64,000 nucleotides of DNA, from assembly GCA_044892505.1 (NCBI GenBank), contig CM097883.1:163928001-163992000 (forward strand), given 5' to 3'. The translations under genes and the position numbers were made by a program. Below the pieces are notes generated by a model. It worked only from the letters and a program-made list of their open reading frames with translations. It was not told where the DNA came from and did not search any database. Positions 2,312 through 64,000 of the stretch are shown here, piece after piece (the first letter of the stretch is position 1; the number at the start of each line of letters is the position of its first letter). Source of the stretch: Schmidtea nova (taxonomy: Eukaryota).

Positions 2312-5300
2312 ATGAACATGATAACAAGTTTTATGAACGAAAACCCAAGTGGAAATGAAAATGGTAAATTTATTTTTTAATTTATTATCATTTAGTATTA
2401 ATTTAGGTAATATCAATAATTCAATTGGGAAATCGATGTTAGAAAATACAGAAGAAAATGGTACTTGATCATTAACTTAATAAATTATTTAACTTTTACT
2501 TTAGGGGATGTAAATATGACTGAACAAACTACCGTACAAGCTGAGATTGTTAATAACGAGAATATTGTGAATAATGGAGTTATACCTGATGTGGTATTGA
2601 ATGTTCAATGTAAGTATTGATTAATTTTAATTATATTTCGATAATTATTTTAATCAATTTAGTAAATAACTTTAGTAAAATATTTGTAAATATATATTTT
2701 TGGTAATATTTTGTAATAATTTAGATAATCTTTACTTTACGTAAACAGTTAATTTAAACAAATTTCTTAAATATTATTTTGTAATAAGTTTTATATTAAA
2801 TTTAAATTATTTTAATAATTATTATATTTCATATTTATTTTCTAATAATTCATATTTTTTATTAATTTATTTTAATGATTTTTTTGATAAATTTAAAGAT
2901 ATTTCATATTAAGGTAAATTTTATGCGAATTATTGTAAGTCGTCAAATCATAACGATTGCCACAAGTTAATGGAGCGATTCTATCGTATTATAAATAACC
3001 AAGTCACCTTCTATTTGTGTCCCACATGTAAGAGCGCCCAACATATAAATTACATTGATTTTTATTTCCAACATTATCTCCACTTAAATCAATTCTCATG
3101 TACTAAGAAAAGTCTTTTCGCATTAATTAATAAAAGTAAACGACGAAATGTTACTGTTTGTCCTAAACCATCTAAAATAAATGTAATATCTGATGATGAA
3201 GATGTCCATTTATCAAATGACGATGTTTTAGTTATTCCTAATTTACATGTTGTCCAATATGGCGGTTCTGTTGAACCTTTGGTTAAATATAATTTGAAAA
3301 AATCGCATGCCATTGTTAAAATGGATGTGGATTCTTTAAATTTAAATAAATTAATTATTCCTTCAGCTTTATTAAATAAATTTAATTCAGTTATTTCCAA
3401 AATGGGGTATGTAAAAGTTCAATTCTGCATTGATGTAGAATTTGAAAAGAATAAGCAATTTCAATCTTTTATAATATCAAATTCTGCAAAACCAATGAGT
3501 GATACCTTTTTAGATGAAGGTATTGCTCTATTAAATGAAAAAAATACTAAAGTCTGCGAAAATGGCAGCAATTGGTTAATTAATAAAATTAAAGAAATAA
3601 GCTTTAAACTTACAAAATATTCACAGATAAGTAGATTGAGCGGTAAAGGTTCTTGTTCAACTCCACCATCATTAAATGCAAAACGTTGCACTGTCAATGT
3701 TAAAAATACTGATAACTTGTGTTTTATATATAGCATCTTGGCTATTTTAAAATACGATGATGTAGATAGCAATCATCGAAATAGAAATAGAGCAACTAAT
3801 TATAATCCCTCAGACCTTGTGTTTGATTCTTCTGATCTTCCTATGAAATTATGTAATATACCCAAATTTGAAGCGAAAAACCCCGGGTTGGCAATAAATG
3901 TCCTTTCATATGACGAGTATGATCTAAATAATATTAATGAGGAAGAGGAAGTCATGAAACATCCATTTGTAGATATTATTCATAGGTCAAAGGTTTTAGG
4001 TGGCACTCCAATTAATTTGATTTTGTTAGAGGAAAATGACTCTTTTCATTATATTGCAGTTACCAACATTAACAGACTTCTAAATTGTGACACTCTTTCT
4101 GTTACTGATGTTCAAATAAGGTGCACGTGGTGCGAGCGTTGCTTGAATGGTTTTAGATTGACTGAAGCTTTTGAGAAACATCAGGCTTTATGCACAAAAA
4201 ACCAGTTAGGTACAACTTTGTATACTTTGCCTTCAGATAAGAACTTGGAATTTAAAGATTGGTCAAAAATTGTTACACCTCCTTTCGTTGTATATGCCGA
4301 TTTTGAGGCTGTTTTACCCAAGGACGATAAGTATTTTCAACGCCACTTGCCTATTTCTGCTGGCTTGTTGCTTATTAATAACTTTACTGGCGAAAAATCG
4401 TATAAAAGTTTTTATGGTCTTAACTGTGTAGAAGAGTTTTTGACTGAAATCAATGATATAGGAGAAAAAGTAGTTTTACCTTACTTTATAAATAATTCCA
4501 AAAAGAAAATGGAATATCTTTCTCCTGCGCAAATAAGATCATTTCGTAGTTCTATTATTTGTTATTTGTGTAATAAACCTTTGAAAAATCCGGTTAAAGA
4601 TCATGACCATTATACAGGTAAATACTTGGGTGCAGCTTGCTCTAAATGCAATTTTTCTCGGCAAATAAGATTCGTCATGCCTGTACTATTTCATAATTTA
4701 CGCGGATATGATTTACATCATATCCTCAAGTATGGTTTAAATAAATTCGATAAATGGGATATAAGTTGTATTCCTACTACAAGTGAAAAGTTTTTGACTT
4801 TATATGCAAGAGTCGATAGTTTGACTATTAAATTTATCGATTCTTGCCAATTTGTAAGCTGTAGCTTAAACGATGCTGTAAAGACTTTAACAGATTTTCC
4901 TCTTACTTCATCCGAATTTATAGGGACTATTATTACATCCAAAGGTATATTCCCATATAATTTTGCAACATCTTTAGAGGTTTTACAAAATACATACGAA
5001 TTGCCACCGATTTGGGAAGGAGTTAAAATCGACGAGTATGAAAAAGCTCAACAGATATGGGATGAATTTAATTGTGAAACATTGTTTGATTATATGATGT
5101 TATACCTGAAATTGGATGTTTTCTTACTTGCCGACTTTTTTCAGCAATTTAGGTCAAAATCCATTGCACATAACCGACTTGAGCCTCTTAATTTCTTGGG
5201 AATTCCAGGTATGTCATGGAATTCAGCTTTGATGACTTTGAAATCTCCTATCGAGTTGCTTCAAGATATGGAGATGTATAATTTTTTCGAAGGGGGGATC

Positions 5301-6680
5301 CGTGGTGGGTTAACATTTGTTAACAAACACCATGTAGTATCCTCCGACGACACTGAGCTTCTTTATATAGATATAAATAATTTATATGGGTGGGCTTTAA
5401 GCCAAAAACTACCTTATAAAGAATTTAAATGGGTAACTGATAGGGAAAAATTAAATAAAATAATTTATTACTGTGAATCTGCTGATTTAGAAGTATTAAC
5501 ATTTGGATTTACATTAGAAGTCGATTTAGAAATTCCTGATTCGATTCACGACAAGCTGGATGATTTGCCAGTTGCCGCTGAAAAGATGTGTCCACCTGGC
5601 TCAAAGGTTGAGAAGTTGATGCTTACGCATTATCCCAAGAAGAACTATGTTCTTCATTGGAGACTTCTCAAACTTTTTCTTTCTCTTGGAGTAAAAATAA
5701 CTCATGTCCATAGGGCAATTAAATTTAAACAAGCATGTATTTTTAAGGATTACATCGATACCAATACCAGACTTAGAGCAGAATCAAGTAATGCTCTCGG
5801 TAAAAATTATTATAAATTATTAAATAATAGTCTCTACGGTAAAACCGTAGAGAATCTTAAAAAGCGCATAAATTTAAGATTATGTAATTCGGCTTCTAGG
5901 CTGATTACATATACTTCTAAGCCAACTTTTAAAAGGACTTTCGAAATTGACGATGATTTAGTTGCAGTGTTGCTGAATCAGGAATCGGTGTGTTTGGATA
6001 GACCCAGCTACATTGGTCAAACTGTACTGGATCTATCTAAACTTAGGATGTACCAGCTGCAGTATGAAGAGTTACAAAAATATCGTAACGAATTCAACTG
6101 CGAAATCAACATCGTTGCTGGTGACACCGATTCGTTTTTTCTTGAGATTAGAAATTGTAAGCTTGATATTCTTTTACCGGCCATGATAAGAGATAACTTA
6201 CTTGACACTTCTAATTATGATCTGAATCACCCATTATATAGTAGGAACCTTGATTCTGTCATTGGCAAATTCAAAGACGAGAATAAAGGGCTTAAGTACG
6301 AGGAGTGGGTGTTTCTTAGACCTAAATGTTATAGTCTTTTAGGTGACGAGGAAACTAATAAAGCTAAGGGGGCAACATTGGCGGGTACCGACATAAAGCA
6401 TCAGTCGTACCTGGACTGTTTTAATAATAACCAAATATTTTCTGTTCCCCAAACGAGAATCACAAGTAAAAATCACCAACTTTTTACCATTAAAAATGAA
6501 AAGATTGCACTGACAAACGCAGATGATAAAAGGAAATGGGTGGCGAAAAATAAAAGCTTGGCATATGGCCATTATATGGAAGGTGACTTGGTTATATTTC
6601 AACATACCGATCCAAGAATCAATCCAGATCAACAATTCCAAGATCCACCTGGAGATATCCAAGATGAAAGTTTTATTTAA
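2312..6680 (+). CDS. polB: Protein-primed family B DNA polymerase (Polinton-type); predicted exons 2312-2363, 2407-2460, 2505-2609, 2914-6680
   Basis: The 1236-aa ORF 2970-6680 has Exo I YADFE, Exo II HNLRGYD, Exo III YLKLDV, KGIFPY, motif A YIDINNLYG, motif B KLLNNSLYGK, motif C GDTDS and RPKCY. An inserted EndoVII-like CYLC..DHDHYTG..CSKCN is present. Three GT-AG phase-1 introns join the upstream exons in frame. Polymerase identity is very secure; the splice model is ~0.7. Confidence 0.93.
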
Positions 6681-9189: not shown

Positions 9190-10885
9190 TAATGAGATCC
9201 TCGTGCTTGGTGCAAATCACAAAGATACTTTATATATGGTTCTAATTTGGTGAGCTTCATTCTCAAGTCTTCTAGTTGATTCACGTTCTAACAATTTCTT
9301 TTTTTCAGCAGCAAATCATTCAAATTACTAAAATCACACTCAGCTAAATACAAGGAAAGAAAAAGTAGCAGCAAATTTCTCGAAAACTTAGATGTATTAG
9401 GATATTTTGTCTCTGTTTCCATTCAAAACCACGTCTTTAGTCCCTTTAAATGAAAACAAGTTCTAATTGATTCATAATTTTTGTATTTCTGAGAGTTTTT
9501 CTTGATAATAAATATTTGTTTTATCTGATAAATTCACGAACATTGGCTGCATTATCCAGGCTGGAAAGTCGATTTCTTTTAAATCTGTAAATCTCTCTGT
9601 CAAGTCGGCTGAAAAAACTTTCAAGTAATTGTCAATAGCAAGTATAGCGTCGTCTGTCACATTGCATCTTTGGAGCCAATAAAATCTAACAAAGTTTTTC
9701 CTACAGATATCTTTTCACCACAATTCAATATTGGCAATGAACCCAAATATCTTTGCTTTAGCATCAGTAATAGTTCTATTTACTCCTTGAAGCTAGCTAT
9801 TTAATATACTTAGTTTTTCAAAGACATCTGCTAAATAACTTAAAAGTGCTTTGCCATCAACTACCAAAAGATACATCATTTCCGGCTTGTTGTACAAAAG
9901 GTTCTTTACAACATCAAATAGTTCCATAAATCTTTTTAAACAATTTCCTTTTGAAAGCCACCTTACTTCAGTATGATATAAAAGCCTAACATAGTCTGAA
10001 TTTTGTTCTTCACAATATAACTTAAACAAACGTTCGCATTTTGCACTAGCTTTAATGCTATTGATACATTTTATAACAGAATTTAATATTTCTCGGTGAA
10101 TAACACAGTGTATGAGTAGCATTCCTGGAGTCTCAGCTTTCATCATTTTTAAGTAGCCATTTTTCTTCCCCATCATATTAGGAGAACCATCTGCAGCACA
10201 AGAAATAATGTTCACAAATGGAATATTATTTACATTTAAATAATCTTTTAACTTATTGTATATATCTTTCGCCGTGTTGGTGCTTTCTAATGACTTACAA
10301 AACAACATTTCTTCGGCAAAATCCTCTTTATCAACATATCTCAGATAAGCTATCAATATAGACTCACTGTTTCTGAATGTTGATTCATCCATTTGCAGTG
10401 ACAAATATTTTGTTCTGAGTTTTTCAACAAGTTGTTTTTCAACATTTTCACTCATTTCGTCAATTCTCCTGCTTACACTATTGTTGCTAAGCGGCATAGA
10501 TTTTACATAGGTATCGTCTTTTCGCAGAATCGTTTTAAGAAATGTTGATATTGTTGGCTTGATAAAAAATTTCGCCAATCATTTGATTTCCCCGGATTTG
10601 GCAATAAGTAATGCAATCTGATAACTGGCCTCGAGTGTACGATTAGTATTTGCAGTATTAGCTGCAAATAAAGTTTTCAACATATTTCTTTTTTCAAAGT
10701 TTTCTTTTAATTTTTAAAAGTAATTCAAATCGCAATTGGCCTGTGTGTCATGGATTCATTAGTCAAGGTTTATTGTCATAAAAGACAAAGGAAAAGTCTT
10801 TTGTCTTAGTCAGGTGGTACAAAACCAAATTTTAAATATTCCTCTGGATATTGACAATTTTTCCTTTTACTTCCATTACTCATTT
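9190..10885 (-). pseudogene. Decayed hAT transposase (Buster/Charlie, ZBED5/SCAND3-like)
   Basis: ORF 9793-10578 contains LSNNSVSRRIDEM, LSLQMDEST, CAADGSPNMMG, HCVIHRE and EVRWLSKG. The N-terminal QYPEEYLKFGF and C-terminal HQARGSH lie in other frames; several stops and frameshifts are present. Confidence 0.9.
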
Positions 10886-11344
10886 TTATGGGCTGAAAAA
10901 ATAAACATGATCAATAAAAAAAACTAAAAAGTTCACATATGCTTAATTAACATATTTGTATAAGGAAAGAATATATAAATAAAATAGTAAAACTAAATGA
11001 ACCAGTTTTCTTTGAGTCCTTTATATTAGTAGCAGCCACCGATATTATTAGCTGTTAAAGCAAAATTAAAAAGAAATTTTTAATAATTTATTACATTTAA
11101 AAAATAAAACAAACAAAAGTTTAGTTAAGTAATGTTAAAGCAAAATTAAATTAACTTTTGAAAATAAAAACTATAAATTATAATTTTTGGCTGTAAATAT
11201 CTTTAATTGATTTATTCTGTGAAAACGATTAACCAACATCATCTTATTATCTATAAGATTGCAAATTTCGCAATACTTATTATTTAAAATTTCATACAAT
11301 TTATTTTCTTCCTTGATCCTAAATTTATTTTTCCAATTTTCCCT

Positions 11345-11545
11345 ACTCATGTAAACATATTTTAGAGGAACGAAACTTTACTATATTTACAGATCATAAA
11401 CCTTTGGTACATGCCATAACTATGAGAGACTCACCTCCTCGACAACAGAGACAAATCTCATTTATTGCTGAATACAATTGCACAATTACATTTATAGCTG
11501 ACAGAGAAAATATTGCTTCCAATTGTCTTTCTAGAAGTTATGAAG
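11345..11545 (+). pseudogene. Isolated Ty3/Gypsy RNase H C-terminal fragment
   Basis: Translates as HILEERNFTIFTDHKPLVHAITMRDSPPRQQRQISFIAEYNCTITFIADRENIASNCLSR, the typical TDHKPL...N..AD.LSR block. Confidence 0.8.
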
Positions 11546-11589
11546 ATGCCATTTTTTATGAAGATGCTCTTCTTGATACCTTGGCTAAT

Positions 11590-14255
11590 CCAAAAGTTTT
11601 TAAGCATCTTTGTGTTGAAATCATCCACAGGTCAAAGGTTGTTGGGGGTACTTTTATCAACTTGATTTTATTTGAAAGTGGTGACCATTATCATTATGTT
11701 GCAGTCACAGATTTTGAGACAACAAATCTCTTTCGATTGCTCGCGTACAAAGTATATGGTGTCATCGATGTTGAATGGATTTCGAAAACAGGAAGCATTC
11801 GATTGTCATCAAGAGTTGTGTGCTAAAAACCAATTAGGCACAACTCTTTATACTCTGCTTAGAAATAAAAATTTTACTAATTGGGAAAAAACAATTACTC
11901 CACCTTTTGTAATTTATGCCAATTTTGAGGCAATCTTAACTACTGACGATATTTATTTTCAAAGACATGTTCCCATTTCATCAGGACTTTTATTTGTAAA
12001 TAACTTTACAGGTTGAAAAATATACAAGAGTTTCTTAGGTCTTGATTGCGTTACTAATTTTCTTTCAGAAGTTAATCACTTGTCGGAATCAATTGTTTAT
12101 CCCTTTTTTAAAAATAATTATAAAAAACCTCTTTTCATAACTGTGGCTCATCAGCAAGCTTTTTCTTCTGCAACCCTCTGTTACCTTTGTAAAATGACTT
12201 TAGTAAGACCGGTTAGGGATCACGACCATTACACTGGTGAATATTTGGGGCTGCTTGTAATTCATGTAATCAAGCCCGTCGAATTTACAAGTTATTGCCT
12301 GTCATTTTTCACAATTTAAAGGGTTATGATCTTCATCATATCCTTAAATATGGATTATCGAACTTAAAAAAAGGGAAAATATCTGTGATTCCAGTTACTA
12401 GTGAGAAATTCTTGACTTTATCTGCTCGAGTTGGTGCTTTAACTATTAAATTCATCGATTCATTAGTTTCTTAATTCTAGTTTAAATGACACTGTTAAGA
12501 CTCTTACTTGTTTACCTTTGACTTGCTCAGAATTCACTGGGACTATAGTTGATTGTTAAAGGATTTTTCCTTATAATTTTGCTACATCTTAAGAAATTCT
12601 TAACAACACTTATGCGTTGCTACCAATCTGTGAAGGCGTTACTCAATCCGAATATGACAAGGCATTGGTGATTTGGTTGGAACCATAGTGTCAAACCTTT
12701 TGTGGTTATACGATGGTTTACCTTATACTTGATGTATTTCTTCTTGCCGATTTCTTTCACGAGTTTAGGGCTAAATTGATTGCTCATAATCGACTTGAGC
12801 CATTGATTCTTTGGGGATTTCAAGTATGTTGGAGTCTTCTGCGCGTATTAACTTGGATAAACCTATTGAGTTGCTCCAGAATATGGAGATTTATAATTTC
12901 TTTGAAGGATTGATCCGTGGTGGTTTCACATTTGTCAACAAGCACCATGTAGTGTCCTTTGAAAGGATAGAATTGCTTTACATTGACATTAATAATTTAT
13001 ACGGGTGGGTTTTAAGCCAAAAATTACATGATGGGAAATTTGAATGGATTACAGATCAAAATCAATTAAATAAAAAAAATAAATTTAATCGATGCTGATT
13101 TAACTATATTGACTTATGGTGTTACTTTTGAAGTGGATCTCGAAATTAATTCTGAAATCCACGATAAATTAAATGATTTCCCCATGGCAGCAGAAAAAAT
13201 ATGTGCTTCGTGTTCAAAAGCTGAGAACTTGATGCTTACGCATTATTCCAAATCGAACTATGTTTTTCATTTGAGGCTTCTCAAGATTTATCTTTCATTA
13301 GGGGTTAAAGTCACTTAAGTACATGGGGCTGTTCTATATAGACACAAACACCCAACTTCGGACCGCTTCTTCAACGGCTCTTGACAAGAATTATTACAAA
13401 CTACCTAATAATAGTCTTTATGGTAAAACTGTCGAAAACCTTAAGAAAAGATTAAATTTAAGGTTGTGTAATTCAGCATCAAAGCTGATTACGTATACTT
13501 CAAAACCCACTTTACAAAAAACATAAAATTGACAATGACTTAATATCTGTACTTCTTAATAAAGACTCTGTGTGCTTAGATAGACCCAGTTACATTGAGC
13601 AAATCGTACTGGATCTATCTACACTTAGAATGTATATACTCTAATATAAAGAATTGCAACAATATCCCAATGAATTCAACTGTGAGATTATTATAGTTGC
13701 CGGTGATACAGACTCTTTCTTTCTTGAGGTTAAAAATTGTAAGTTGGATACTCTTTTGTCTGCCATGGTTATAGATATGTTTTTGGATACCTCAAATTAT
13801 GACCCGGAACATCCTTTGTATTCTAGAAACCTTGATTTCGTCATTGGAAAATCAGATGAAAATAAAGGTAAGAAATATAAGAAATGGGTTTTTCTTAGAC
13901 CAAAGTGTTATAGTTTGTTTGATAAAAAGATTCTATTAAAGCGAAGGGAATAACATTGAAGGGCACTGACTTAAAACATCAGTCTTATCTGGATTGTTAT
14001 CATAATAATTCTATAGTTTCCATTGAGCAGTCTCGATTTGTAAGTAAAAATCATCAAATCTTTAGTAATAAGTCTACAAAAGTTTCCTTGACTAATCTTG
14101 ATGACAAAAGACTTTGGATAGGTAAAAATCAGAGTCTTACTTATGGTCACTATAGGGGTATAGATGTGGTTATGGGGGTTAATAATGTGGAAGAAGAAAT
14201 CAATAATGCCGACGATTGCGATGATGTTGTTTTTCTTCATATTTTTAATAAATAA
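11590..14255 (+). pseudogene. polB: Second PolB copy: 5'-truncated, frameshifted, divergent subfamily
   Basis: Fragments are colinear with copy 1 from about aa 330: VEIIHRSKVVGG, YANFE, DHDHYTG, YIDINNLYG, KLPNNSLYGK, AGDTDS, RPKCY. Many stops and frameshifts. Confidence 0.92.
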
Positions 14256-15266: not shown

Positions 15267-17955
15267 TTATGGACCATTAGTAAAACGCTCTTTGCAAAAT
15301 GTTCTTCCATAAATTACTTCAACAGAACTAACTTTTATACTTGACTGCATTGTTGAATTCATTGCAAATTCTATATGAGGAAATGCTTCTTCCCATGTCT
15401 TAAACTGTTTCTCTTCCAAACAGCAGGAAATCCAGTCTCTTAGCATTCTAAATTGCCTTTCAATTTGTCCATTAGATTGATGATGATAAGGACTTGAATA
15501 AACAATCTTCAAGTGATACTTTACTGCCATATTTTTAAAAGCTTGGGATTCGAAACATTTTCCTTTATCAACATGAATTTCCTTTGGTGGTCCAAACTTC
15601 AATATCCACGAACTTTCCAGATTATCAATTAATGTCTTTTCTTCTTGTGTTCTTACAGCTTTTAATAATATATATTTACTAAAATAATCTATTATAGCCA
15701 TCATATATCTTTGGCCAGATGGTGTCATTTTAAAAGGGCCACAAAAATCAATATATATTTTTTCAAATGGTTCATGCGCAATTAGTTTTTCATTAACTTC
15801 TTTTGTTTTACCAGTGAATGTTTTACGTTTCTGGCAAATTTTACAAGTTGTGATAATTCTCTTAATACTTTTGTCCATTTCTTGGAAATTATAATAATTC
15901 TTTATGTAGCTTGTCGTTTTGTTGATTCCTGCATGACACAATTCTTAATAGATTTCTAGTATAAAATCGTTTTTCAAATATGAAGGAATATATATTTTAT
16001 TATTATGAGTCATAATAATTCCATTATCCACATAATAATCTTCAGTTTTTGCCGTTCTGTATGTTTTCTTTTATTTCCATTATTTCTTCAGAATTACTTT
16101 GCCATTTAAATATTTGATCTTCTATCGACATTCCTAAAATTTTAGTTTTAATTCTTTCTGCTTTAGCATCAATATGATTCATCTGACATTGTGTGCAATT
16201 TCCAATATTCAGTCGTGATAGTGCATCCGCATTATTGTGTTTCTCACCTTTGCGATATTCTAATTTCATGTCCAAACTACTTAAAAAATTTATCCAATTT
16301 TGAAACTGAGCGGTAATTGGTTTTTTTGTAGTTAACATAAATGTGATTGCCTTATGATCAGTTCTTAAAATAATTTTTTTTCCGTACAGATAATGTTTAA
16401 AATGCTGTGTAAAATGGAAAACAGATAATAATTCCTTTCTTGTTATACAGTACCCAATTTCATGTTTATTCATACTTTTTGAACCATATGCGATTATCTT
16501 TTCTTCATTATCGTCACCTCTTTGTGATAAAACAGCACCAATACAATCAAAACTAGCATCGGTGTCTAAAATGAACGTTTTATTAAAATCCGGATGACAT
16601 AGTAATGGTGCACTGATCAAACTATGTTTTTACTCGTCAAAAGCTTTTTCACATTGTGATGTCCAAATAATACTTTTGCTTTTACCTCCAATTAAAGATT
16701 CCAATGACCTAGCTATTTTTGAGTAATTTTGAATAAATTTCCTAAAGTAATTACATAATCCTAAAAAGCTCCTAAGATGTTTCACACAATTAGGCTGCTT
16801 TACATTTTTAATTGTTTCAATCTTAGACTCATGTGTTTTAATACCTTTTTCATTAATTATATGTCCAAGAAACTTTAATTCAGATACTAGGAACTTGCAT
16901 TTCTCAGGGTTAAATTTTAGTCCAGATTTCCTAATTCTAAGGAAAAGCTTATTTATTCTTTTGCTTTGTTCTTCAATAGTTTTCGAAAAGATCAGTATGT
17001 CATCTAAATAGACTAATGCTTCATTCCACATCATATCTCCAACTATTAATGTCATAAGTTTTTGAAACGTTGATGATGCGGCAGCTATTCCAAAAGGCAT
17101 CCTATTAAAGCAAAATTGGCCCTGTCTTTTAGAAAATGTTGTTTTCAATTTACTCTCTTCATCCAATTCAACTTGATAATAAGCCTTTCTTAAGTCGATC
17201 GATGAAAAATATTTGGCCCCATACAAAGAATCTAGCATTTCATCAACATTGGGAATCGGAAACGCTGGTCTTACTGTATTTGAATTTAAAATTCTAAAAT
17301 CCAAACATATTCGAATTTCAGAAGTTCCCTTTTTTGGCACACATACTATTGGTGAATTCCAAGGTGATTCACATTTCTCTATAATTTTATTTTCTTCTAG
17401 GTTTTTAAAAATTTCCTCTAGTTTTTCCTCATAGTGCATTGGTTGTCGCCGTGGCTTAATTGGTATTGGATTGCAGTTAGTTTCTATTCTGTGCTTTAAA
17501 ATATCTGTTTTGCCTATATCCCATTTATTACACATAAAAATATCTGAGAATTCAATAATTATTTCATATATCGGATTGCATCTTTCAATTTTCAATATTT
17601 CATTAATATATTTATTTTTATTATTTAATTTTAAATTATAACCAAATTTTGTTTGCAAACTGAGGACATTTTCATTACAAAATTCAACTAATTTAATATT
17701 TAAAGAATTCAATATATCTATTCCTATAATTACTTCTGGGTATAATTCCTCTGCAACGAAAAATTCTCCAGTTATTTCTTTATTGTTGAACTCTAACCTT
17801 AAAGAAACTTTCCCTAAAATCCCTAACATGCTACCGTTGGCACAAGATATCTTTCTATTTCCTTCATTAAAATATTTTAAATTCAGTTTTTCAGCAATCA
17901 TTTTAGATAAAATACTTATCTTTGCTCCTGTGTCAAATAATGAATTAAAAGTCAC
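15267..17955 (-). pseudogene. pol: Gypsy pol (protease-RT-RNase H-integrase), disrupted
   Basis: ORFs 16630-17955 (PR/RT), 16042-16620 (RH, same frame after one stop) and 15267-15941 (integrase: IDFCGP, DKGKCF, SNGQIER). Confidence 0.93.
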
Positions 17956-19437
17956 ATTATTCGATTTAACATTATTAAATGGTCTACCATCTACCTTACA
18001 ATATCATATATCCTATATATCTTTAATAACATTTACACTCAGTAATTTTAATTTTTTATTAAATATATTTAAAATAAATTCTTTTTTATAACAATCACTC
18101 ACAAATATACAGTCATTCTCATTTTGTTCATTATTACAATTATTAATTAAATAAAAATCATAATCAGATTTTTGATTGGGGAAAAATCAACATTAACATT
18201 ATCAAACAAACAATCAACCAAACAATCATTACATTCAACATTTAGGGTCCTCAAAAATTTATCATTGCTTACATGTGATTTATCGTTCCTAACATATCCC
18301 CTCTGCTCGGAGCTTTGGCATTTCTCGATATCTCTGACTGTACATCATAGTCTCTCGATTCGTCATCATCTACTGCAGCCACGCGATCTCCATTGTTTCG
18401 ATCATTTTCTTGATTAAAACTTCGATTGTATCGATTGAAATTTCCATTGTTTTGATTCGAAGTTCATTGAAATCTCATCTCGTAGTGATGTTGTTTATGA
18501 AAACATTGAAAACTTAAATGACCTGCTTTTCCACAACACGAACAACGAATATTTGGGCATTCTCGACGAATATGACCAATTTCACGGCATGCGTAACATT
18601 GCACTTTTGAATATTGATCTGAACTTCGATTTTGATAAGTGTTTCCATTTTGAGGTCTTCCACTGAAATTTCTACTGAAATTCCTTTGATAATCTGATCG
18701 TCCTTGAAATTGATTTCTTTGTAATTTTGAAAATTCATTTTTATCAATTTGATTTCACTGATTTCCATAACTATTTCTTTTTTCATTAGAATTGTATCGA
18801 CCGTTTTTCACAATTGACGCTTAAGAGGCATTTCCAACGGCTGAAACTTGTTGTATCTTTGATTTATCTTCATCCAATTTCTGTAAAATTCTTTTAATAT
18901 ATTTATTTGCCGTTGTACCTTTCTGTACTGACTCTCCATCATTTCTGAAGTCTTCTTTCGATAATTTTACTTTCAGAAAATCTTCCGTCATTTCATATCT
19001 TTTTATTTCATGTTTTTCTTCTTCATTATCAAGACAATGCTTGAGGAAGAATGTTGTCAAATTTGACATTGTTAGCTTGTGCTTCAGAATTTTCTGAACG
19101 CCTTTCTAAATTTTGCTGATGTATGTTTCTGCATCATCTTCTCTTTTTCGATAATTTAGCAAATTTTCCAAATCTTTAGCTAAATCCTGGTTTACTTCGA
19201 ACGCTAGTCTAAGCCTTTTCACATAATCTTCTTCATCTGGAATCTTGTCATATTTGTTGCGGCAATTTTCGTCCAAATAAACTCGAACAAATACCTTTCT
19301 TTGACTATTGTCTAACTGAATAATTGAAAAATATGATTCAATCTTCTCATTAAATTCTTCCAAATCGTCTCCAATTGAATAAATTTTCAGCTGTGGGAGA
19401 ATCCGTAATAATTTCTGAGTTGAAAGCGTGGTCGCCA

Positions 19438-19672
19438 TGTAAAGAATAAGAATGACTTTTGAAGTTCTAAAACTTTATTTAAGAAATCTTGGTACTATTT
19501 ATAGTACCCGGTGTGCCAACACCAGCACAATCAGCAAAGCTTCTTGGGAAAATAATAAACAATGATGTCATCTGAGGATCCAGTCAGTCAAGCATAATCA
19601 ATCACACATGCAGGCATGACACAATATATAATAGGGGTTAGGGAAATCAAATATCCCATTATAATTACATCA
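19438..19672 (-). repeat. Gypsy 5' LTR (235 bp)
   Basis: Direct repeat of 14837-15070, immediately followed by the PBS on the minus strand. Confidence 0.95.
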
Positions 19673-57814: not shown

Positions 57815-57995
57815 ATGACTATAGATCAAATTTTTTTTATAAACAATAATACAATATTTCGGCACAGCCTTTATCAAGTGTGTACACACTTGATAAAGGC
57901 TGTGCCGAAATATTGTGTTATTGTTTATAAAAAAAATTTGATCTATAGTCATTATGAGAATTATTGATAATAATAATAAAAAAAGATCAAAGGTG
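57815..57995. repeat. Best-preserved hammerhead-like palindrome, centre gtgtgtacacac (no loop)
   Basis: Near-perfect reverse-complement arms centred at ~57883 (left arm cut by Ns after ~68 bp), bounded by N-runs. Confidence 0.9.
57886..57918 (+). ncRNA. Putative minimal type I hammerhead ribozyme (U3-A8 variant)
   Basis: ACAC (stem I), UUGAUAA (core 3-9), extra A, GGC ugu GCC (stem II), GAA, AUAU (palindromic helix III), U (cleavage nucleotide), GUGU (stem I). Activity is untested. Confidence 0.6.
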
Positions 57996-58469
57996 ANNNN
58001 NNNNNNNNNNNNNNNNNNNNNNNNNNNNNNNNNNNNNNNNNNNNNNNNNNNNNNNNNNNNNNNNNNNNNNNNNNNNNNNNNNNNNNNNNNNNNNNNNNNN
58101 NNNNNNNNNNNNNNNNNNNNNNNNNNNNNNNNNNNNNNNNNNNNNNNNNNNNNNNNNNNNNNNNNNNNNNNNNNNNNNNNNNNNNNNNNNNNNNNNNNNN
58201 NNNNNNNNNNNNNNNNNNNNNNNNNNNNNNNNNNNNNNNNNNNNNNNNNNNNNNNNNNNNNNNNNNNNNNNNNNNNNNNNNNNNNNNNNNNNNNNNNNNN
58301 NNNNNNNNNNNNNNNNNNNNNNNNNNNNNNNNNNNNNNNNNNNNNNNNNNNNNNNNNNNNNNNNNNNNNNNNNNNNNNNNNNNNNNNNNNNNNNNNNNTA
58401 TAGGAATTTGAAAATAAAACTTGATTGGAAAACAATTAGAAATTTACTAGAGAAATAACAAAGAGAAAC

Positions 58470-60216
58470 TGGTCGCGCCCGCTCTTAAAATATTTTAAAA
58501 TTAATAAAATAATAATTAAAATAATTAATCGGGTGCTTGATCGCTATGAGAGATTGTGGGGCGAGCCTGGAAGCCGTTAGACAGTCATATCGAAATCTAT
58601 ATAAAGCTTATATGATGCAAGTATTGATTTAACTCAATCTGAAGACGAAAATGTTCACGTGAAAAAGAAACGATCTGAATCATCACATGAAACTTATAAT
58701 CATAATCTAATTCAAATAAACAATGATATCTTTAAAGTTTTCTACTCCACCGAAGATCTTTGTGAACAATATCTCTCAATGCAACGGCAAATAAATCGCT
58801 AAGTCATTAAAACCCAATACTCGATAAATTGCCCAAAATGTCACATTCAATTTCTAAATTGTAACTACCTTTGGATAGTTCGGGAATTCTGCGTGGAGTT
58901 CAGCAGGTGGCGATTTCTCGGCGTGCGCACGCGGACGCGAGGGTCTTGGAATCGCTGTTTAAGTTGGAATTATGCGTGTAATTGTCTGTGTGCGCGTCTG
59001 TGATATGTGGTGATCAGATATTTGGGCTTTTGGTGTCGTTCTATGGGAGCTTGCTACATATGGGTTATCTCCTTACCCTGGAATAGAATTACATGATGTT
59101 TATCATATCTTAGAAAAAGGCTATCGAATGGATCGTCCTGAAGGATGTCCAGAAATAGTATATGGGATAATGCTCCAATGTTGGCAATGGGATCCATTAT
59201 TGAGACCATCATTTGCTCAATTGTACTCAAAACTATATTATATTTGTTTCTCTCAGAATGTCGATTGGTCATATCAATTCAACAACTCATTAAGCATGGA
59301 TAAAAGCCAATTTAAAACATCGAAGGAATCTTAATGAAAACGCGTTTCATCGCGTCTGTGTGCGCGGTGGTGTTATATCGATTCGTGTTTTCTTAGCATG
59401 CGCACACAGACGCGAGTAGTTCCAGGTTGGCTAAGAATAATTAATCCATGAATTGGAGTTTTTGGACTTTTAATTTTGCGAATGTATTTGTAATTTTTTT
59501 GGAGATTTGGAATTATGAATAAAAATCAAGATGTTTTAAATTTGTTTAATATGCATTACTTATGAATTCTTAAATTATTGAAATGTCATATCGCTCTCGA
59601 TTTAAAAATGTTGCCGATACTATGGAAGAAGAAGCTCGCAAATTACAAGCAAATGAAGAACCTGCAATCGTTTATCATCAGTTTATTGAAACTTTTGAAG
59701 AGCCACCGAAAGTTAATAAGACATGGGTTAAAGGTGCTGGTAAACTCTATCAGCTGTTAATGAAAAAGGTGGATTTGGAACTGATTAAGCATTTGATTGG
59801 CGAGGTAATGGTTTGGTGCTTGGGACATGCTGATTCAGCTGAGGATGTGTTGGATATCATTTTCACACAGATTGATAACACTGTTGGATATGCTACCGAT
59901 AAATCTGTTGAGAATTCCAATGCTGCTGGTCTCAATCAGATTGTTGTGTTCCTTTTCCTCGTTTCGGATATCCTTCACAATTCCTGCACTAGAGTGCGAA
60001 ACACGTCTTTTGATCGGAAATACATCGAAAACAGATTGCCTCAAATGATGGTATTTCTGAATCAATCTTGTCTAGCGATTGCTAGTGATATGTTTACCAA
60101 TCCCGATAGATATCCTTTGTCGGATAGTGAGGAGAATTTCAATTTGTCAATGATTAAATCTCGCGTTCTCAGTCCAAAAAATGAGGAAAGCAATCGGAGC
60201 TGGATGCGCCGATCCA
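58470..60216 (+). repeat. Inferred 5' LTR (~1747 bp, TG...CA)
   Basis: Starts TGGTCGCGC and ends GCGCCGATCCA (imperfect inverted termini) one base before the PBS. Only the first 598 bp can be verified against the 3' copy in this window. Confidence 0.65.
59014..59334 (+). pseudogene. ABL: Captured, uninterrupted Abl-like tyrosine kinase C-lobe fragment (subdomains IX-XI)
   Basis: [69 protein letters not shown] closely parallels c-Abl [37 protein letters not shown]..RPSFA. It is preceded by an in-frame TGA, and its start is repeated at ~63947-64000. Confidence 0.88.
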
Positions 60217-63200
60217 TTGGTAGCAGAGCGTGGTTCCCTTCGGGGGGCCACGCACGGCGGGTAAGCTTCTCGATTGCTTATAGCGGTCACAGCGCCGCAT
60301 GTTTTTCTAAAAATATTAAAAACTTAAAATTAATAATGAATTTAATGGGGGGATTTAGCGCTGTAATGGGCCCCAGCGACCATCCCCTTCCCTTAAGCTC
60401 AGTTGGGTCTGAGAACGAAAAGGATGGGTCACCTGAAAATACGTATTTGAAACAGGTTATTAAGCTTGATGGTAGCCGTAGTGATAAATCAAGCATGCCC
60501 TTTAGTGAGAAACTTAGGGATACTTATGATAATCCCACAAAACTTGTATGTGGTGAAAAGCAAACTTTAACTAAAGATTTTGATAAAACAAAAAATAAAA
60601 AAAGATCATTTGATGAATCAAATAGACAAAGGGATAAAATTGTGTCACCTGCTTATGAAGCAATATGTATAGGAAAAGATAACTCGAGATTTAAAGGTGT
60701 AGAGGTTAGTAGGTGGACCGGTTATATCAGGGGAGATTTTATATTGAATACCAACCGGGAAATGTTGCAACAAAATAGATTTTTGAAAGTATTCAGAAAA
60801 GAGTTAGGGGGAAAAGGTTTAGAACTTTTTGAGCGAACAATAGAATACAAAGTTAATTATAAAAAGTTTTATGTTCAAGTTGCTAAAAATATTAAAGTGG
60901 AAATGCATGAAGACAGTGTAAATGAAAATAAAATAGCGGAATGTTTGTGTTTTTATTCAATGCCAAGTGGTGATGCAAGTACAGGTTTAAAAGAGTATAG
61001 TCCGCGAATGAAAGAAAATAAAACGGAGTCAACTTTGCATTTGGGACCACGATTGAGAGGTGGTATACAGATGTTTGTGAGGACTTTATCAGGGAAAACT
61101 ATTACCCTGGAAGTTGAATCAAGTGACACAATCGAGAAAGTAAAAGCGAGAATACAAGACAAAGAAGGCATTCCACCTGACCAGCAAAAGTTGATCTTCG
61201 CCGGTAAACAACTGGAAGACGGACGAACATTATGTTATTATAATATGCAAGGGGAATCTACCTTGCATTTGGGGTTGAGACTACGAGGAGGTATGAAAAC
61301 CCAAGACAAACAGTTGCAGCTAAAGAATGGGATCGAGAAGCTCTGCGTTCAGAAGACGCATCTAACCAGACTATTCAGGAGAGCCTCAGAATACCTGTCG
61401 GAAGCGGATCGCGTGCAACGTCAAGAGGAATACGAAGAAGACTTTGATGAAGTGCTGGAGGACTGGAGCAGGCTGAAGAGCTTAGCAGAAGAGTTGGGAG
61501 ACCTGGAAGCTGTCAAACGCTTTGATCAGGAATTAGATGCTATTGAAGAGCAAAATGAACATTTAGGGAGATTAGAGAGAGACAAAAGCATAGTCGACAA
61601 AGCGAATTGCTACCCAGGAAAAAGAATGTTGGACAAAAGCATTGAAAGCCAAGAGAGAGACGTACCGTCAGAAAGAACAATTTCAGAAGTGAACAAGGTA
61701 AAAAATAGTTTGAAAGAGAAAAATGGGAATTTGATAAATGGAGAGAAATTTGAGGAAGTGCAGGAGGACTGGAGCAAGCTAAAGAGCTTAGCAGAAGAGT
61801 TGGGGGACCTGGAAGCTGCCAGACATTTTGAGCAAGAATTAGATGCTATTGAAAAGCAAAATGAACATTTAGTGAGGAAAATGGTAGAAACAAATCTTAA
61901 CGAAGGTTCACGGGTAGCCGCTATCCGAGGAATGTCAGGTGGAGGTTCAGTTGAAAGGATATTCAAGATGGACGAGAGCGGAGTCGACAAAGCAAATCGC
62001 TATCCAGAAAAAAGAAGGATGGACAAAAGCATTGAAAGCCAAGAGATAGAAGTATCGTCAGAAAGAACAATATCAGAATTGAACAAAGAAATAAATAGTT
62101 TGAAAGAGAAAAATGGGAATTTGATAAATGAAAAACTAAATGATAAAAATGAATTCGAAAATAGAAAAAATAAAATGGAATTGGAATTAGAAAAAGAAAG
62201 AAGCAGGACAATGTCGTTAAAATTGAGAGAAAAGGAGGTGGCCGATTTAGAGACGAAAATGAAGTCTTGCGAGGTTAATTATGAGAATTTATCGAAAAGC
62301 AAGAATGAAATTCAAAGTAAATTGGAATCTTTATTTGAAGAATATTCAAAATTATTTGACGAGCTGGCATTAGTTAAAACTCACAAGGGTGAGCTGGAAA
62401 CGAATTTGAGGAATTATGAAATCGAAACAAAACGCTCTCTTGCTGACAAGTCAGGTTTAATAACACAGCTTCAATTAAAAATAGAAGTTCTTCAAAAGAA
62501 AATAGAAACGATTGAATTAGATCGTAAAAAGGAAATTAATGAATCAGAAGTAAAATTAGCGAATTTGGCTGAAACTGTAGAAACGTTGTCCGCTGAGATA
62601 GAAAATGTAAATGATATTAATGTTAAATTGGCAGCTGTAAATCGAGAACTAGAAATAAAAATTGAACGAAATGAAATCGATTTAAATGAGCTTACTGCGA
62701 AAGGAAGGCATTTAGATGTGGAAATGAAAGAAAAGGAAAATGATTACCTAGAAAAACTTCGAGAGGCTAATGACGAAATCGTTTCTCAGCAAACCTTGGT
62801 GAAGGATTTGACGGAATTAAATGGTAATTTAATAATTAAACTAAATGACAGTCTGGGAATGATTGAAGATATTAAATTAAACTTAATGCCTTTAATGATA
62901 GAAAAGGATTTCTTGAAAATGGGACTTAGTACTAAAAAGGAGTTGGTTAAAGAAGTCTCAAGGAAATTGGAAACAAATATTGAAGAGGAAATTTATATTT
63001 CGAACAATATAATGAATATTGACGAAAAATTGGTCGAATCCAAAAGAGTTGAAGAATTAATTGAGAGCCAGTTGATTAAATTAGAAGTTAATGTAAAGGA
63101 AAATAGAACGAAATGGTGTATGCTGCATAGTTCGGTTGTGGGGATTGATGGGGAAATTACAAAGGTTTGGATATTGTTTTACACAGTTGCAAAATTCATA

Positions 63201-63374
63201 AATAAAGGCATCATGCAAGAGGCATGGATGCAAAGAATTGATTGGAAGGAAATACTTCCTCCAGAAATGATAAAGAAGATAAAGGTGGCGAGTCTTCCAC
63301 ATTCAGAATTAAAGGCGGACTCGTGGAGAGTTATTATTGGTCATGGAGAAAGAGAGAAGTGGATGAAGTGTTGA
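59583..63374 (+). CDS. 1263-aa chimeric ORF: U2SURP N-terminal and CID fragments, HSP90 middle-domain fragment, polyubiquitin piece, duplicated helical segment, long coiled coil, possible BEL/Pao pol-like tail
   Basis: [33 protein letters not shown] (U2SURP CID). [40 protein letters not shown] (HSP90, 60723-61022). Full ubiquitin at 61065-61292 bounded by RLRGG on both sides. No stop codons. Confidence 0.85.
60218..60235 (+). other. Primer-binding site complementary to the 3' end of tRNA-iMet
   Basis: The first 11 nt TGGTAGCAGAG are the complement of the metazoan initiator tRNA end CUCUGCUACCA. Positioned directly after ..CCA-T. Confidence 0.8.
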
Positions 63375-63389
63375 TGTTGACAGAATGTC

Positions 63390-64000
63390 AAAGGGGGGAG
63401 AATGGTCGCGCCCGCTCTTAAAATATTTTAAAATTAATAAAATAATAATTAAAATAATTAATCGGGTGCTTGATCGCTATGAGAGATTGTGGGGCGAGCC
63501 TGGAAGCCGTTAGACAGTCATATCGAAATCTATATAAAGCTTATATGATGCAAGTATTGATTTAACTCAATCTGAAGACGAAAATGATCACGTGAAAAAG
63601 AAACGATCTGAATCATCACATGAAACTTATAATCATAATCTAATTCAAATAAACAATGATATCTTTAAAGTTTTCTACTCCACCGAAGATCTTTGTGAAC
63701 AATATCTCTCAATGCAACGGCAAATAAATCGCTAAGTCATTAAAACCCAATACTCGATAAATTGCCCAAAATGTCACATTCAATTTCTAAATTGTAACTA
63801 CCTTTGGATAGTTCGGGAATTCTGCGTGGAGTTCAGCAGGTGGCGATTTCTCGGCGTGCGCACGCGGACGCGAGGGTCTTGGAATCGCTGTTTAAGTTGG
63901 AATTATGCGTGTAATTGTCTGTGTGCGCGTCTGTGATATGTGGTGATCAGATATTTGGGCTTTTGGTGTCGTTCTATGGGAGCTTGCTACATATGGGTTA
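63390..64000 (+). repeat. Polypurine tract (63390-63402) and partial 3' LTR (63403-64000)
   Basis: The purine run ends immediately before the TG at which identity with 58470 begins. Confidence 0.88.

What the first reader, a model, noticed from the sequence alone, without database searches (positions are those of the whole stretch)
58470..64000. LTR retroelement acting as a gene-fragment shuffler: at least four host mRNA pieces and one unbroken 1263-codon frame
Seen: the cis signals (TG-start direct repeats, tRNA-iMet PBS, PPT) are intact, but RT and integrase are replaced by uninterrupted sense-strand fragments of Abl, U2SURP, HSP90 and polyubiquitin. The last three are fused in one frame. 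Established: LTR elements and retroviruses capture cellular mRNA by RT template switching (e.g. v-abl in Abelson MuLV). Seen: the fragments are clearly diverged (ubiquitin differs from the human sequence at 13 of 76 residues), yet no stop or frameshift occurs in 3.8 kb of AT-rich DNA, and the two LTR copies look identical. Inference: a recently mobile non-autonomous family under selection to keep translating a chimeric protein.
Basis: partly seen in the sequence, partly recalled or inferred. Interest (0 to 1): 0.88.

Follow-up and report, generated by a model that had tools for sequence, protein, structure and literature searches.

The report
LTRs that swap host mRNA starts
A young, internally deleted jumping gene carries pieces of five host genes, and its family keeps swapping such pieces of spliced messenger RNA inside its terminal repeats, likely docking on the host's spliced leader, while a ubiquitin spacer is predicted to cut the borrowed part off the element's own protein.

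Summary
Real, and stranger than reported. The element is a 6.7-kb deletion derivative of a BEL/Pao retrotransposon: 1,747-bp TG…CA LTRs, GAAAC target duplication, tRNA-Met PBS, PPT. A matching autonomous partner is in the same genome. Host pieces do not replace RT or integrase. Abl, U2SURP and a fifth, zinc-finger piece lie inside the LTR; HSP90 and ubiquitin precede Gag, also in autonomous copies. The long frame starts at a host ATG inside the LTR and crosses the PBS, and family members swap that host 5′ piece. The LTR also holds the exact 42-nt spliced-leader exon, followed by 18 different sequences in 82 LTRs; in 3 of 4 host genes found the junction is the gene's AG acceptor. Abl, U2SURP, UTP20 and HSP90 pieces lack host introns. 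Cargo evolves neutrally (HSP90 ω≈1.3), yet shared variants carry 1 stop against 25 expected, and the ubiquitin Gly-Gly is kept in 71 of 71 tails. Best reading: selection keeps the frame open, not the chimera; ubiquitin likely frees Gag from any borrowed start. No expression data. The scan noted the LTR-mosaic/ubiquitin plan before in another genome.

The parts
58465..58469 (+). 5-bp target-site duplication GAAAC (partner lies just past the 3′ LTR, at window-equivalent 65150-65154)
58470..60216 (+). 5′ LTR, 1747 bp, TG…CA, mosaic of element modules and host mRNA pieces
58573..58614 (+). copy of the 42-nt spliced-leader exon, without SL intron and without the SL gene's upstream DNA; 3-4 mismatches to the host exon
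   Evidence: (true SL-type genes in L109)
58615..58866 (+). 5′ piece of a host zinc-finger gene, starting at the gene's AG acceptor/ATG; 97% identical; out of frame and stopped in the element
   Evidence: host L129
58867..59012 (+). element module with the GTCTGTGTGCGCG motif (promoter-like, inferred); a second, inverted pair lies at about 59350-59415
59013..59337 (+). Abl kinase C-lobe piece, two host introns absent, 2 of 286 nt different, no ATG of its own, separate frame
   Evidence: host L101
59535..60086 (+). U2SURP mRNA 5′ end: about 50 nt 5′ UTR, ATG at 59583, N-terminus joined to the CID exon by two microhomology deletions, two introns removed exactly
   Evidence: host L106
59583..63374 (+). 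1263-codon open frame that starts inside the LTR and reads through the PBS
60087..60216 (+). conserved LTR tail shared by most cargo variants; putative poly(A) hexamer about 65 nt before the end (inferred)
60218..60235 (+). primer binding site for tRNA-Met(CAT), read in frame
60728..61028 (+). HSP90 middle-domain piece, 82% DNA and 57% protein identity to the host gene, neutral rate
   Evidence: host L130
61029..61292 (+). tail of one ubiquitin unit plus one whole unit ending in Gly-Gly, directly before Gag
61293..62050 (+). N-terminal part of BEL/Pao Gag, partly duplicated; capsid and zinc-knuckle regions absent
62130..62950 (+). coiled-coil filler of unknown origin, shared with non-autonomous relatives, absent from the helper
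63204..63266 (+). remnant of the pol RT-connection region (81% to the helper; weak Peptidase_A17 hit)
63391..63402 (+). polypurine tract
63403..64000 (+). 3′ LTR, first 598 bp (continues to window-equivalent 65149, ends in CA)

Best explanation
This is an internally deleted BEL/Pao retrotransposon from a family whose Gag-Pol frame starts at a host start codon captured inside the LTR and is swapped again and again, likely by reverse-transcriptase template switching, with a ubiquitin unit predicted to let host deubiquitinases cut Gag free of whatever was borrowed. Shown: two swap slots in the LTR. One holds host mRNA 5′ ends (UTR, ATG, first exons, introns gone) in frame through the PBS to HSP90, ubiquitin and Gag. 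The other begins exactly at the end of a spliced-leader exon and holds 5′ ends of trans-spliced genes. Shown: the frame, the ubiquitin Gly-Gly and Gag are conserved while cargo residues drift. Inferred: RT strays onto a co-packaged mRNA at a microhomology, runs to its 5′ end and must jump back; the 42-nt leader shared by the LTR and every trans-spliced mRNA supplies that landing site, and short T-rich matches supply it in the other slot. Inferred: a capture in the coding slot survives only if it brings an in-frame ATG. The window copy has lost most of gag and pol and would move with the proteins of its intact relatives; why it still needs an open frame (RNA stability, or cis-recruitment by the Gag N-terminus) is open.
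For: Ends, TSD, PBS, PPT. 81 exact LTR-end/PBS junctions, control 0. Of 45 copies read, 43 have their longest frame in the same phase across the PBS and 40 are open for 60 codons or more upstream, with seven different starts and nested fusions. Helper with the same head, SL, tail, HSP90, ubiquitin and a 2572-codon Gag-PR-RT-RH-IN frame starting in a UTP20/FHA piece, 93.6% DNA identity over 60087-61585. Two further lineages share the plan with other cargo (UBA1, FKBP, Dcc1, TCP1, HECT, HSP70), and in them Gag follows Gly-Gly with no Met. Introns absent for Abl, U2SURP, UTP20, HSP90 5′ UTR, and the CIAO1-like and Per1-like pieces. SL-type genes with GT donor and Sm-like site exist; LTRs carry the exon alone, both ends exact. 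18 downstream classes in 82 LTRs; junction equals the host AG acceptor in 3 of 4 hosts found. Shared variants: 1 stop against 25 expected; ubiquitin ω 0.30, HSP90 1.43; Gly-Gly in 71 of 71 tails. A near-unchanged HSP90 mRNA 5′ end sits in one element as a fresh capture.
Against: No RNA, ribosome or protein data; start site and poly(A) site are inferred from motifs only. Cleavage is untested: two lineages end in RLCGG rather than RLRGG, and the window unit has changes at residues 42 and 70 near surfaces that deubiquitinases read (residue roles recalled). In the window's own lineage a Met follows the Gly-Gly, so internal initiation is not excluded. One of four SL junctions (LSM14-like) is mid-exon; two more hosts were not found. 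Singletons also show fewer stops than expected (12 against 22), so the simple expectation may run high. ω below 1 for ubiquitin and Gag-N in deleted copies may be imported from helpers by recombination. 20 of the SL loci were picked by a pattern that required GT after the leader.
Confidence: 0.72

Rival explanations
1. The captured domains are working parts of a chimeric protein that interferes with host silencing or proteostasis.
For: Cargo includes HSP90, an FKBP/TPR protein, UBA1, ubiquitin and HSP70; HSP90 and FKBP6 act in piRNA loading (recalled). Burro elements carry ubiquitination and apoptosis domains (PMC6431247, passages).
Against: HSP90 ω 0.9-1.9 against the host in 11 copies, U2SURP 0.74; pieces are truncated, nested and swapped; some autonomous copies use a simple 9-residue repeat in the slot; a third lineage uses unrelated filler.
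Confidence: 0.1
2. Cargo turnover is selected at the RNA level: replacing LTR sequence with host mRNA sequence escapes piRNA targeting, and the open frame protects the RNA from nonsense-mediated decay or other quality control. Ubiquitin is a passenger or Gag is released by the element's protease.
For: Deleted copies with no capsid or pol still purge stops, also in the neutral coiled coil. Turnover is very fast and confined to the LTR.
Against: Does not explain ubiquitin directly before Gag in three lineages whose Gag proteins are about 45% alike, its separate recapture (dS 1.6 between lineages) or the invariant Gly-Gly. No small-RNA data. Compatible with the best explanation as an added force.
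Confidence: 0.25
3. The exact SL/acceptor junctions come from splicing, not RT homology: an LTR inserted upstream of a gene splices from a donor at its SL end into the trans-splice acceptor, and the fusion RNA is then packaged.
For: LTR-initiated cis-splicing into a trans-splice acceptor is described for ta-TRIM (PMC4558846, passages). Some LTR variants have GT after the leader. The Abl piece also begins exactly at an exon start.
Against: Needs a separate upstream insertion for each of 18 classes; no element lies in the 150 nt read upstream of the CIAO1-like and Per1-like acceptors or the 400 nt read upstream of the zinc-finger one. SL mismatches fall mostly in the 5′ half (21 of 27, not independent), as a crossover inside the leader would give. 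The LSM14-like junction is a microhomology.
Confidence: 0.12
4. Tandem duplication or misassembly.
For: Only that some copies sit in tandem arrays or on small contigs.
Against: CA end and TSD present; the same junctions occur in dozens of dispersed copies with their own TSDs.
Confidence: 0.01

Closest known systems
BEL/Pao LTR retrotransposons (PMC3118150, passages read)
   Same: DUF1759 Gag, zinc knuckles, protease, RT, Peptidase_A17, integrase in the helper; TG…CA LTRs, 5-bp TSD.
   Different: LTRs 1.2-2.4 kb against 0.2-1.2 kb given there; the frame starts inside the LTR at a host ATG, crosses the PBS and passes through ubiquitin before Gag.
LTR-mediated retroposition in animals, and maize Bs1 (Tan et al. 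2016, PMC5131818, passages read)
   Same: Partial, intronless, multi-gene chimeras with microhomology at switch points; further rounds of retroposition.
   Different: There the retrocopy replaces internal ORFs and makes the element non-autonomous. Here cargo sits in the LTR, is carried by autonomous elements, supplies the start codon, is replaced serially, and one slot uses a 42-nt standing homology.
Ubiquitin insertions of cytopathic BVDV (PMC8310069, passages read)
   Same: Captured ubiquitin mRNA placed directly before a viral protein; there host hydrolases cut after it and give an authentic N-terminus.
   Different: RNA virus, dead-end variants; here a fixed feature of three retrotransposon lineages, with cleavage untested.
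Relic spliced leaders of dinoflagellate retrogenes (PMC5585692, PMC12014239; search listing and abstract starts only)
   Same: A DNA copy of the leader marks reverse transcription of a trans-spliced mRNA.
   Different: There a passive tag on retrogenes; here a fixed LTR module behind which the gene changes repeatedly.
Planarian Burro/GYPSM1 elements (PMC6431247, passages read)
   Same: Flatworm LTR elements with host-like domains, among them a ubiquitin-like one, in the polyprotein.
   Different: Gypsy, over 25 kb, Gag at the N-terminus, extra domains internal; no LTR cargo described in the passages read.

Membership tests
BEL/Pao retrotransposon family (lineage) | DUF1759 Gag, zinc knuckles, PR-RT-RH-IN order, Peptidase_A17 in a relative with the same cis ends | tested here: met
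   helper L142; 93.6% DNA identity to the window over 1.5 kb
Autonomous BEL/Pao element (the window copy itself) | complete gag and pol | tested here: not met
   only Gag N-terminus and a 63-bp pol remnant:
LTR retroelement | TG…CA LTRs, TSD, PBS, PPT | tested here: met
LTR-mediated retrocopy (Tan et al.) | host introns absent from the captured piece | tested here: met
   Abl 2 introns, U2SURP 2, UTP20 3, HSP90 5′ UTR 1:
LTR-mediated retrocopy (Tan et al.) | microhomology at switch points | tested here: inconclusive
   seen by eye at the two U2SURP deletions and the LSM14-like junction; no shuffle control run
LTR-mediated retrocopy (Tan et al.) | captured sequence replaces internal ORFs | tested here: not met
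   cargo lies in the LTR or upstream of Gag, also in autonomous copies:
Spliced-leader exon | exon of a gene with GT donor, stem-loops and Sm-like site; joined to host AG acceptors | tested here: met
   three genes in L109; 3 of 4 acceptors. Rfam gave no match for the window stretch; trans-splicing itself not seen in RNA
Ubiquitin-fusion processing (BVDV type) | ubiquitin ending in Gly-Gly directly before the mature protein | tested here: met
   71 of 71 tails matched:
Ubiquitin-fusion processing (BVDV type) | cleavage by host deubiquitinases | not testable with these tools
   needs proteomics or an in vitro assay
Burro / gypsy | gypsy RT, giant polyprotein, Gag at the N-terminus | tested here: not met
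   Pao-specific Pfam domains, 2.2-2.6k codons:

The most novel reading that the evidence does not exclude
A retrotransposon clade that has given up its own start codon and runs a standing gene-capture machine in its LTR: the host spliced leader serves as a universal recombination handle for any trans-spliced mRNA, in-frame host 5′ ends are continually tested as translation starts, and a ubiquitin joint makes Gag indifferent to them. Hundreds of solo LTRs thereby seed promoter-plus-chimeric-ORF units across the genome.
Probability: 0.55. Interest if true: 0.9.

Novelty: new variant of a known kind. Interest (0 to 1): 0.82.

Why it matters
It shows a way for an LTR element to make gene capture routine and nearly free: a shared leader sequence solves the hard return jump, and a cleavable spacer removes the cost to Gag. 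It gives a natural series of exon-shuffling events of different ages with their source genes in one genome, a record of which mRNAs are packaged in germ or stem cells, and a DNA record of trans-splice sites. Practically, multi-copy host-gene pieces (178 U2SURP matches) can confound gene annotation, read mapping, RNAi design and piRNA target calls in such genomes.

Tried and rejected
No RNA holder listed for the element; four contig runs of unknown kind hold about half its words; nothing was laid, so expression is untested. Rfam found no family in 58400-64000 or in L108 at useful scores. L108 and L110-L128, found by an SL-plus-GT pattern, proved to be element copies; only L109 holds SL-type genes. 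My first idea that the LTR head is the SL gene promoter was rejected: upstream DNA differs. Four of five single-Surp loci were not the U2SURP source; the UBA1 5′ end was not within the 10 kb fetched. Hosts of the GBF1-like and proteasome-alpha pieces were swamped by copies. The host polyubiquitin source was not located (one search returned a third element lineage), so ubiquitin ω is within-family only. The search for ubiquitin-Gag fusions in public proteins returned only polyubiquitins in the 120 listed: uninformative. The representative search with the post-ubiquitin part gave one unnamed hit, P0001, which also reads a PBS-like stretch in frame before a similar Gag N-terminus, without ubiquitin. 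The coiled coil gave only generic look-alikes at low recognition. One search had frame errors for U2SURP and Abl, corrected. LTR divergence was rejected as an age clock because 12 of 13 differences are a recombined block. Names SMYD5, FKBP6, CIAO1, GBF1, LEM, HECTD1, RME-8, TDP-43 and glutathione reductase are recalled by eye; Pfam supports only the domain class for some, and nothing for the SMYD5-like piece.
Full report
1. Anatomy. The window is G000:C2:163928001-163992000 in a 1.25-Gb AT-rich animal genome. Reading past the window completes the element: 5′ LTR 58470-60216, 3′ LTR 63403-65149, both 1747 bp, TG…CA, flanked by GAAAC. The PBS at 60218 matches tRNA-Met(CAT) genes of this genome, and the PPT abuts the 3′ LTR. 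The LTRs differ at 13 sites; 12 lie in 59976-60195, where the 3′ copy is 99.2-99.6% identical to two other copies and the 5′ copy is another haplotype. The insertion is thus very young and a recombinant. Because the LTR is this long, the Abl and U2SURP pieces are inside it, and the 1263-codon frame (59583-63374) starts in the LTR and reads through the PBS.

2. Family and helper. An exact 25-nt LTR-end/PBS pattern has 81 matches, control 0; the C-terminal protein had 1073 first-look candidates, 150 scored. Relatives with more of the internal region show DUF1759, zinc knuckles and a protease directly after ubiquitin. A search with the window's Gag N-terminus found a 2572-codon frame; this copy (L142) has the same LTR head, leader exon, tail, PBS, PPT, HSP90 and ubiquitin, 93.6% identity over 60087-61585, its own 5-bp TSD, and Gag, protease, RT, Peptidase_A17 and integrase domains. 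Four more long copies match it at 98-100% over the pol part read. The window element is a deletion derivative: Gag N-terminus (partly doubled), a coiled coil of unknown origin, a 63-bp pol remnant. Two further lineages share the plan: eight copies with 2183-2335-codon frames and TGTT-type LTR heads, and one with 511 pattern matches, three read. In these two, Gag follows Gly-Gly with no Met.

3. Coding slot. I read 45 copies with a PBS junction (40 of the 81, taken mostly in list order and one per tandem array, plus 5). In 43 the longest frame crosses the PBS in one phase; 40 are open for at least 60 codons upstream. Seven different starts occur: U2SURP, UTP20, an FHA protein, PP1, a SMYD5-like one (recalled) and two unnamed, with nested fusions; by eye about 11 junctions, all in frame. 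Other lineages carry UBA1, FKBP/TPR, Dcc1, TCP1, HECT pieces or a simple repeat. Host genes: U2SURP (L106) gives about 50 nt of 5′ UTR, the ATG, two exactly removed introns and two microhomology deletions; UTP20 (L140) gives about 24 nt of UTR, the ATG and three lost introns. On small contig C53 an element holds HSP90 mRNA from the 5′ UTR, intron removed, to about codon 465, nearly unchanged: a fresh capture. An AATAAA or ATTAAA lies 35-65 nt before the LTR end in nearly all LTRs listed, which suggests a long R that contains the cargo; this is inference.

4. Spliced-leader slot. At 58573-58614 lies a 42-nt stretch ending in ATG that I recognised from memory as a planarian-type leader. The genome confirms its nature: three genes in L109 carry the same 42 nt, then a GT donor, stem-loops and a U-rich Sm-like site, with unrelated upstream DNA. 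LTRs carry the exon alone, both ends exact. What follows changes at the exon's end: 18 classes in 82 LTR copies (17 in 75; 20 loci were preselected for GT; ten further classes break off within the leader or carry an indel in it). Pfam names WD40, proteasome-alpha N-terminus, LSM14, forkhead, Per1, NOP5NT and TRIP12-like pieces. Six source genes were sought and four found. In three the junction is the gene's AG acceptor at or just before the ATG: the window's zinc-finger gene (L129), a WD40 gene and a Per1 gene. The LSM14-like junction is a mid-exon microhomology. The TGTT-type autonomous LTRs lack the leader; the window's helper has it. The Abl piece lies further down, lacks two introns, differs at 2 of 286 nt, and starts exactly at an exon start.

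5. Selection. Against host genes: HSP90 ω 1.29 (0.81-2.48) at dS 0.17, and 0.92-1.86 in 11 copies; U2SURP 0.74 (0.36-1.56). Autonomous gag and pol: 0.11-0.24. Among 45 family copies, variants shared by two or more give 1 stop against 25 expected (Poisson 4e-10); singletons 12 against 22; shared ω is 1.43 for HSP90, 1.06 for the coiled coil, 0.30 for ubiquitin, 0.65 for Gag-N. Shared indels are in frame or compensated, except near the C-terminal end and at the repeat junction. Gly-Gly is present in 71 of 71 ubiquitin tails that the pattern matched. The window's ubiquitin differs from that of the second lineage at dS 1.6 while neighbouring HSP90 pieces are close, which points to a separate recapture. 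The zinc-finger piece outside the frame is already frameshifted and stopped. Caveats: method is simple counting with a fixed transition bias; copies recombine; low ω in deleted copies may be imported from helpers.

6. Mechanism. Shown: position, mRNA origin, swapping, frame selection, ubiquitin-Gag adjacency. Inferred: RT switches onto a co-packaged mRNA, reaches its 5′ end and returns by the shared leader or by short matches; only captures with an in-frame ATG spread in the coding slot; host deubiquitinases release Gag, as for ubiquitin-NS3 of BVDV (PMC8310069, passages). Unexplained: why deleted copies purge stops even in neutral filler, where transcription starts, and the origin of the coiled coil.

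7. Relation to what is known. Capture of partial mRNAs by LTR elements, also multi-gene and by a Pao element, is established (PMC5131818, passages), but there cargo replaces internal ORFs. BEL/Pao families are known in planarians (PMC3118150, passages); Burro elements carry host-like domains (PMC6431247, passages). Leader trans-splicing in planarians is documented (PMC10899757, passages; the leader sequence is in a supplementary figure I did not see). Searches listed no paper on LTR-borne host start codons, ubiquitin-Gag fusions or leader-anchored capture; I judged most from titles and abstract starts. The library lacks most subscription papers, Repbase reports and the original planarian genome paper, so absence from print is not shown. 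This scan noted the LTR-mosaic/ubiquitin plan in another genome and leader copies in dinoflagellate LTRs; I reached my reading before those calls, and they are not independent support.

8. Verdict. Real; a new variant of BEL/Pao with an unusual gene-capture system. Interest 0.82.

Noticed in passing
window 2913-6680 (+); decayed look-alikes near 11300-14250 (+) and 46100-47050 (-): 1255-codon open frame that looks like a protein-primed B-family DNA polymerase of a Maverick/Polinton-type element (by eye).
   Followed up: no
window 15267-19474 (-) and 9793-10578 (-): Broken gypsy-like protease/RT/RNase H/integrase frames, and a hAT-like transposase piece (by eye).
   Followed up: no
window 57815-57952: Near-perfect palindrome with 69-nt arms, related to a repeat at 52897-52942 and to repeats near 32-38 kb.
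   Followed up: no
L132/L141 (G000:C53:30200-33000): Family member holding HSP90 mRNA from the 5′ UTR to about codon 465, almost unchanged, fused in frame to the element's C-terminal region; on a small contig.
   Followed up: partly
L134-L136: Third BEL/Pao lineage (511 pattern matches) with HECT piece in the LTR, HSP70 and a reductase-like piece, near-canonical ubiquitin, then Gag.
   Followed up: partly
L002, L003, L005, L007, L010, L011, L013, L014, L016, L017: About half of the first 20 copies read sit in (AAT)n/(ATT)n microsatellites; possible target preference or survival bias.
   Followed up: no
G000:C1:139.08-139.11 Mb, C1:485.05-485.08 Mb, C2:291.30 Mb: Head-to-tail arrays of up to six elements sharing LTRs.
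   Followed up: no
G000:C1:510.09 Mb onward (L022): Long tandem array of tRNA-Met(CAT) genes with a 458-bp period; 1031 pattern matches in the genome.
   Followed up: no
L021 (G000:C1:486688343): An element copy whose PBS match to the tRNA runs beyond the usual 18 nt; possibly primer read-through.
   Followed up: no
L068, L074, L076, L077, L079: Layered captures: a decayed U2SURP start remains in frame upstream of a later FKBP-type start.
   Followed up: partly
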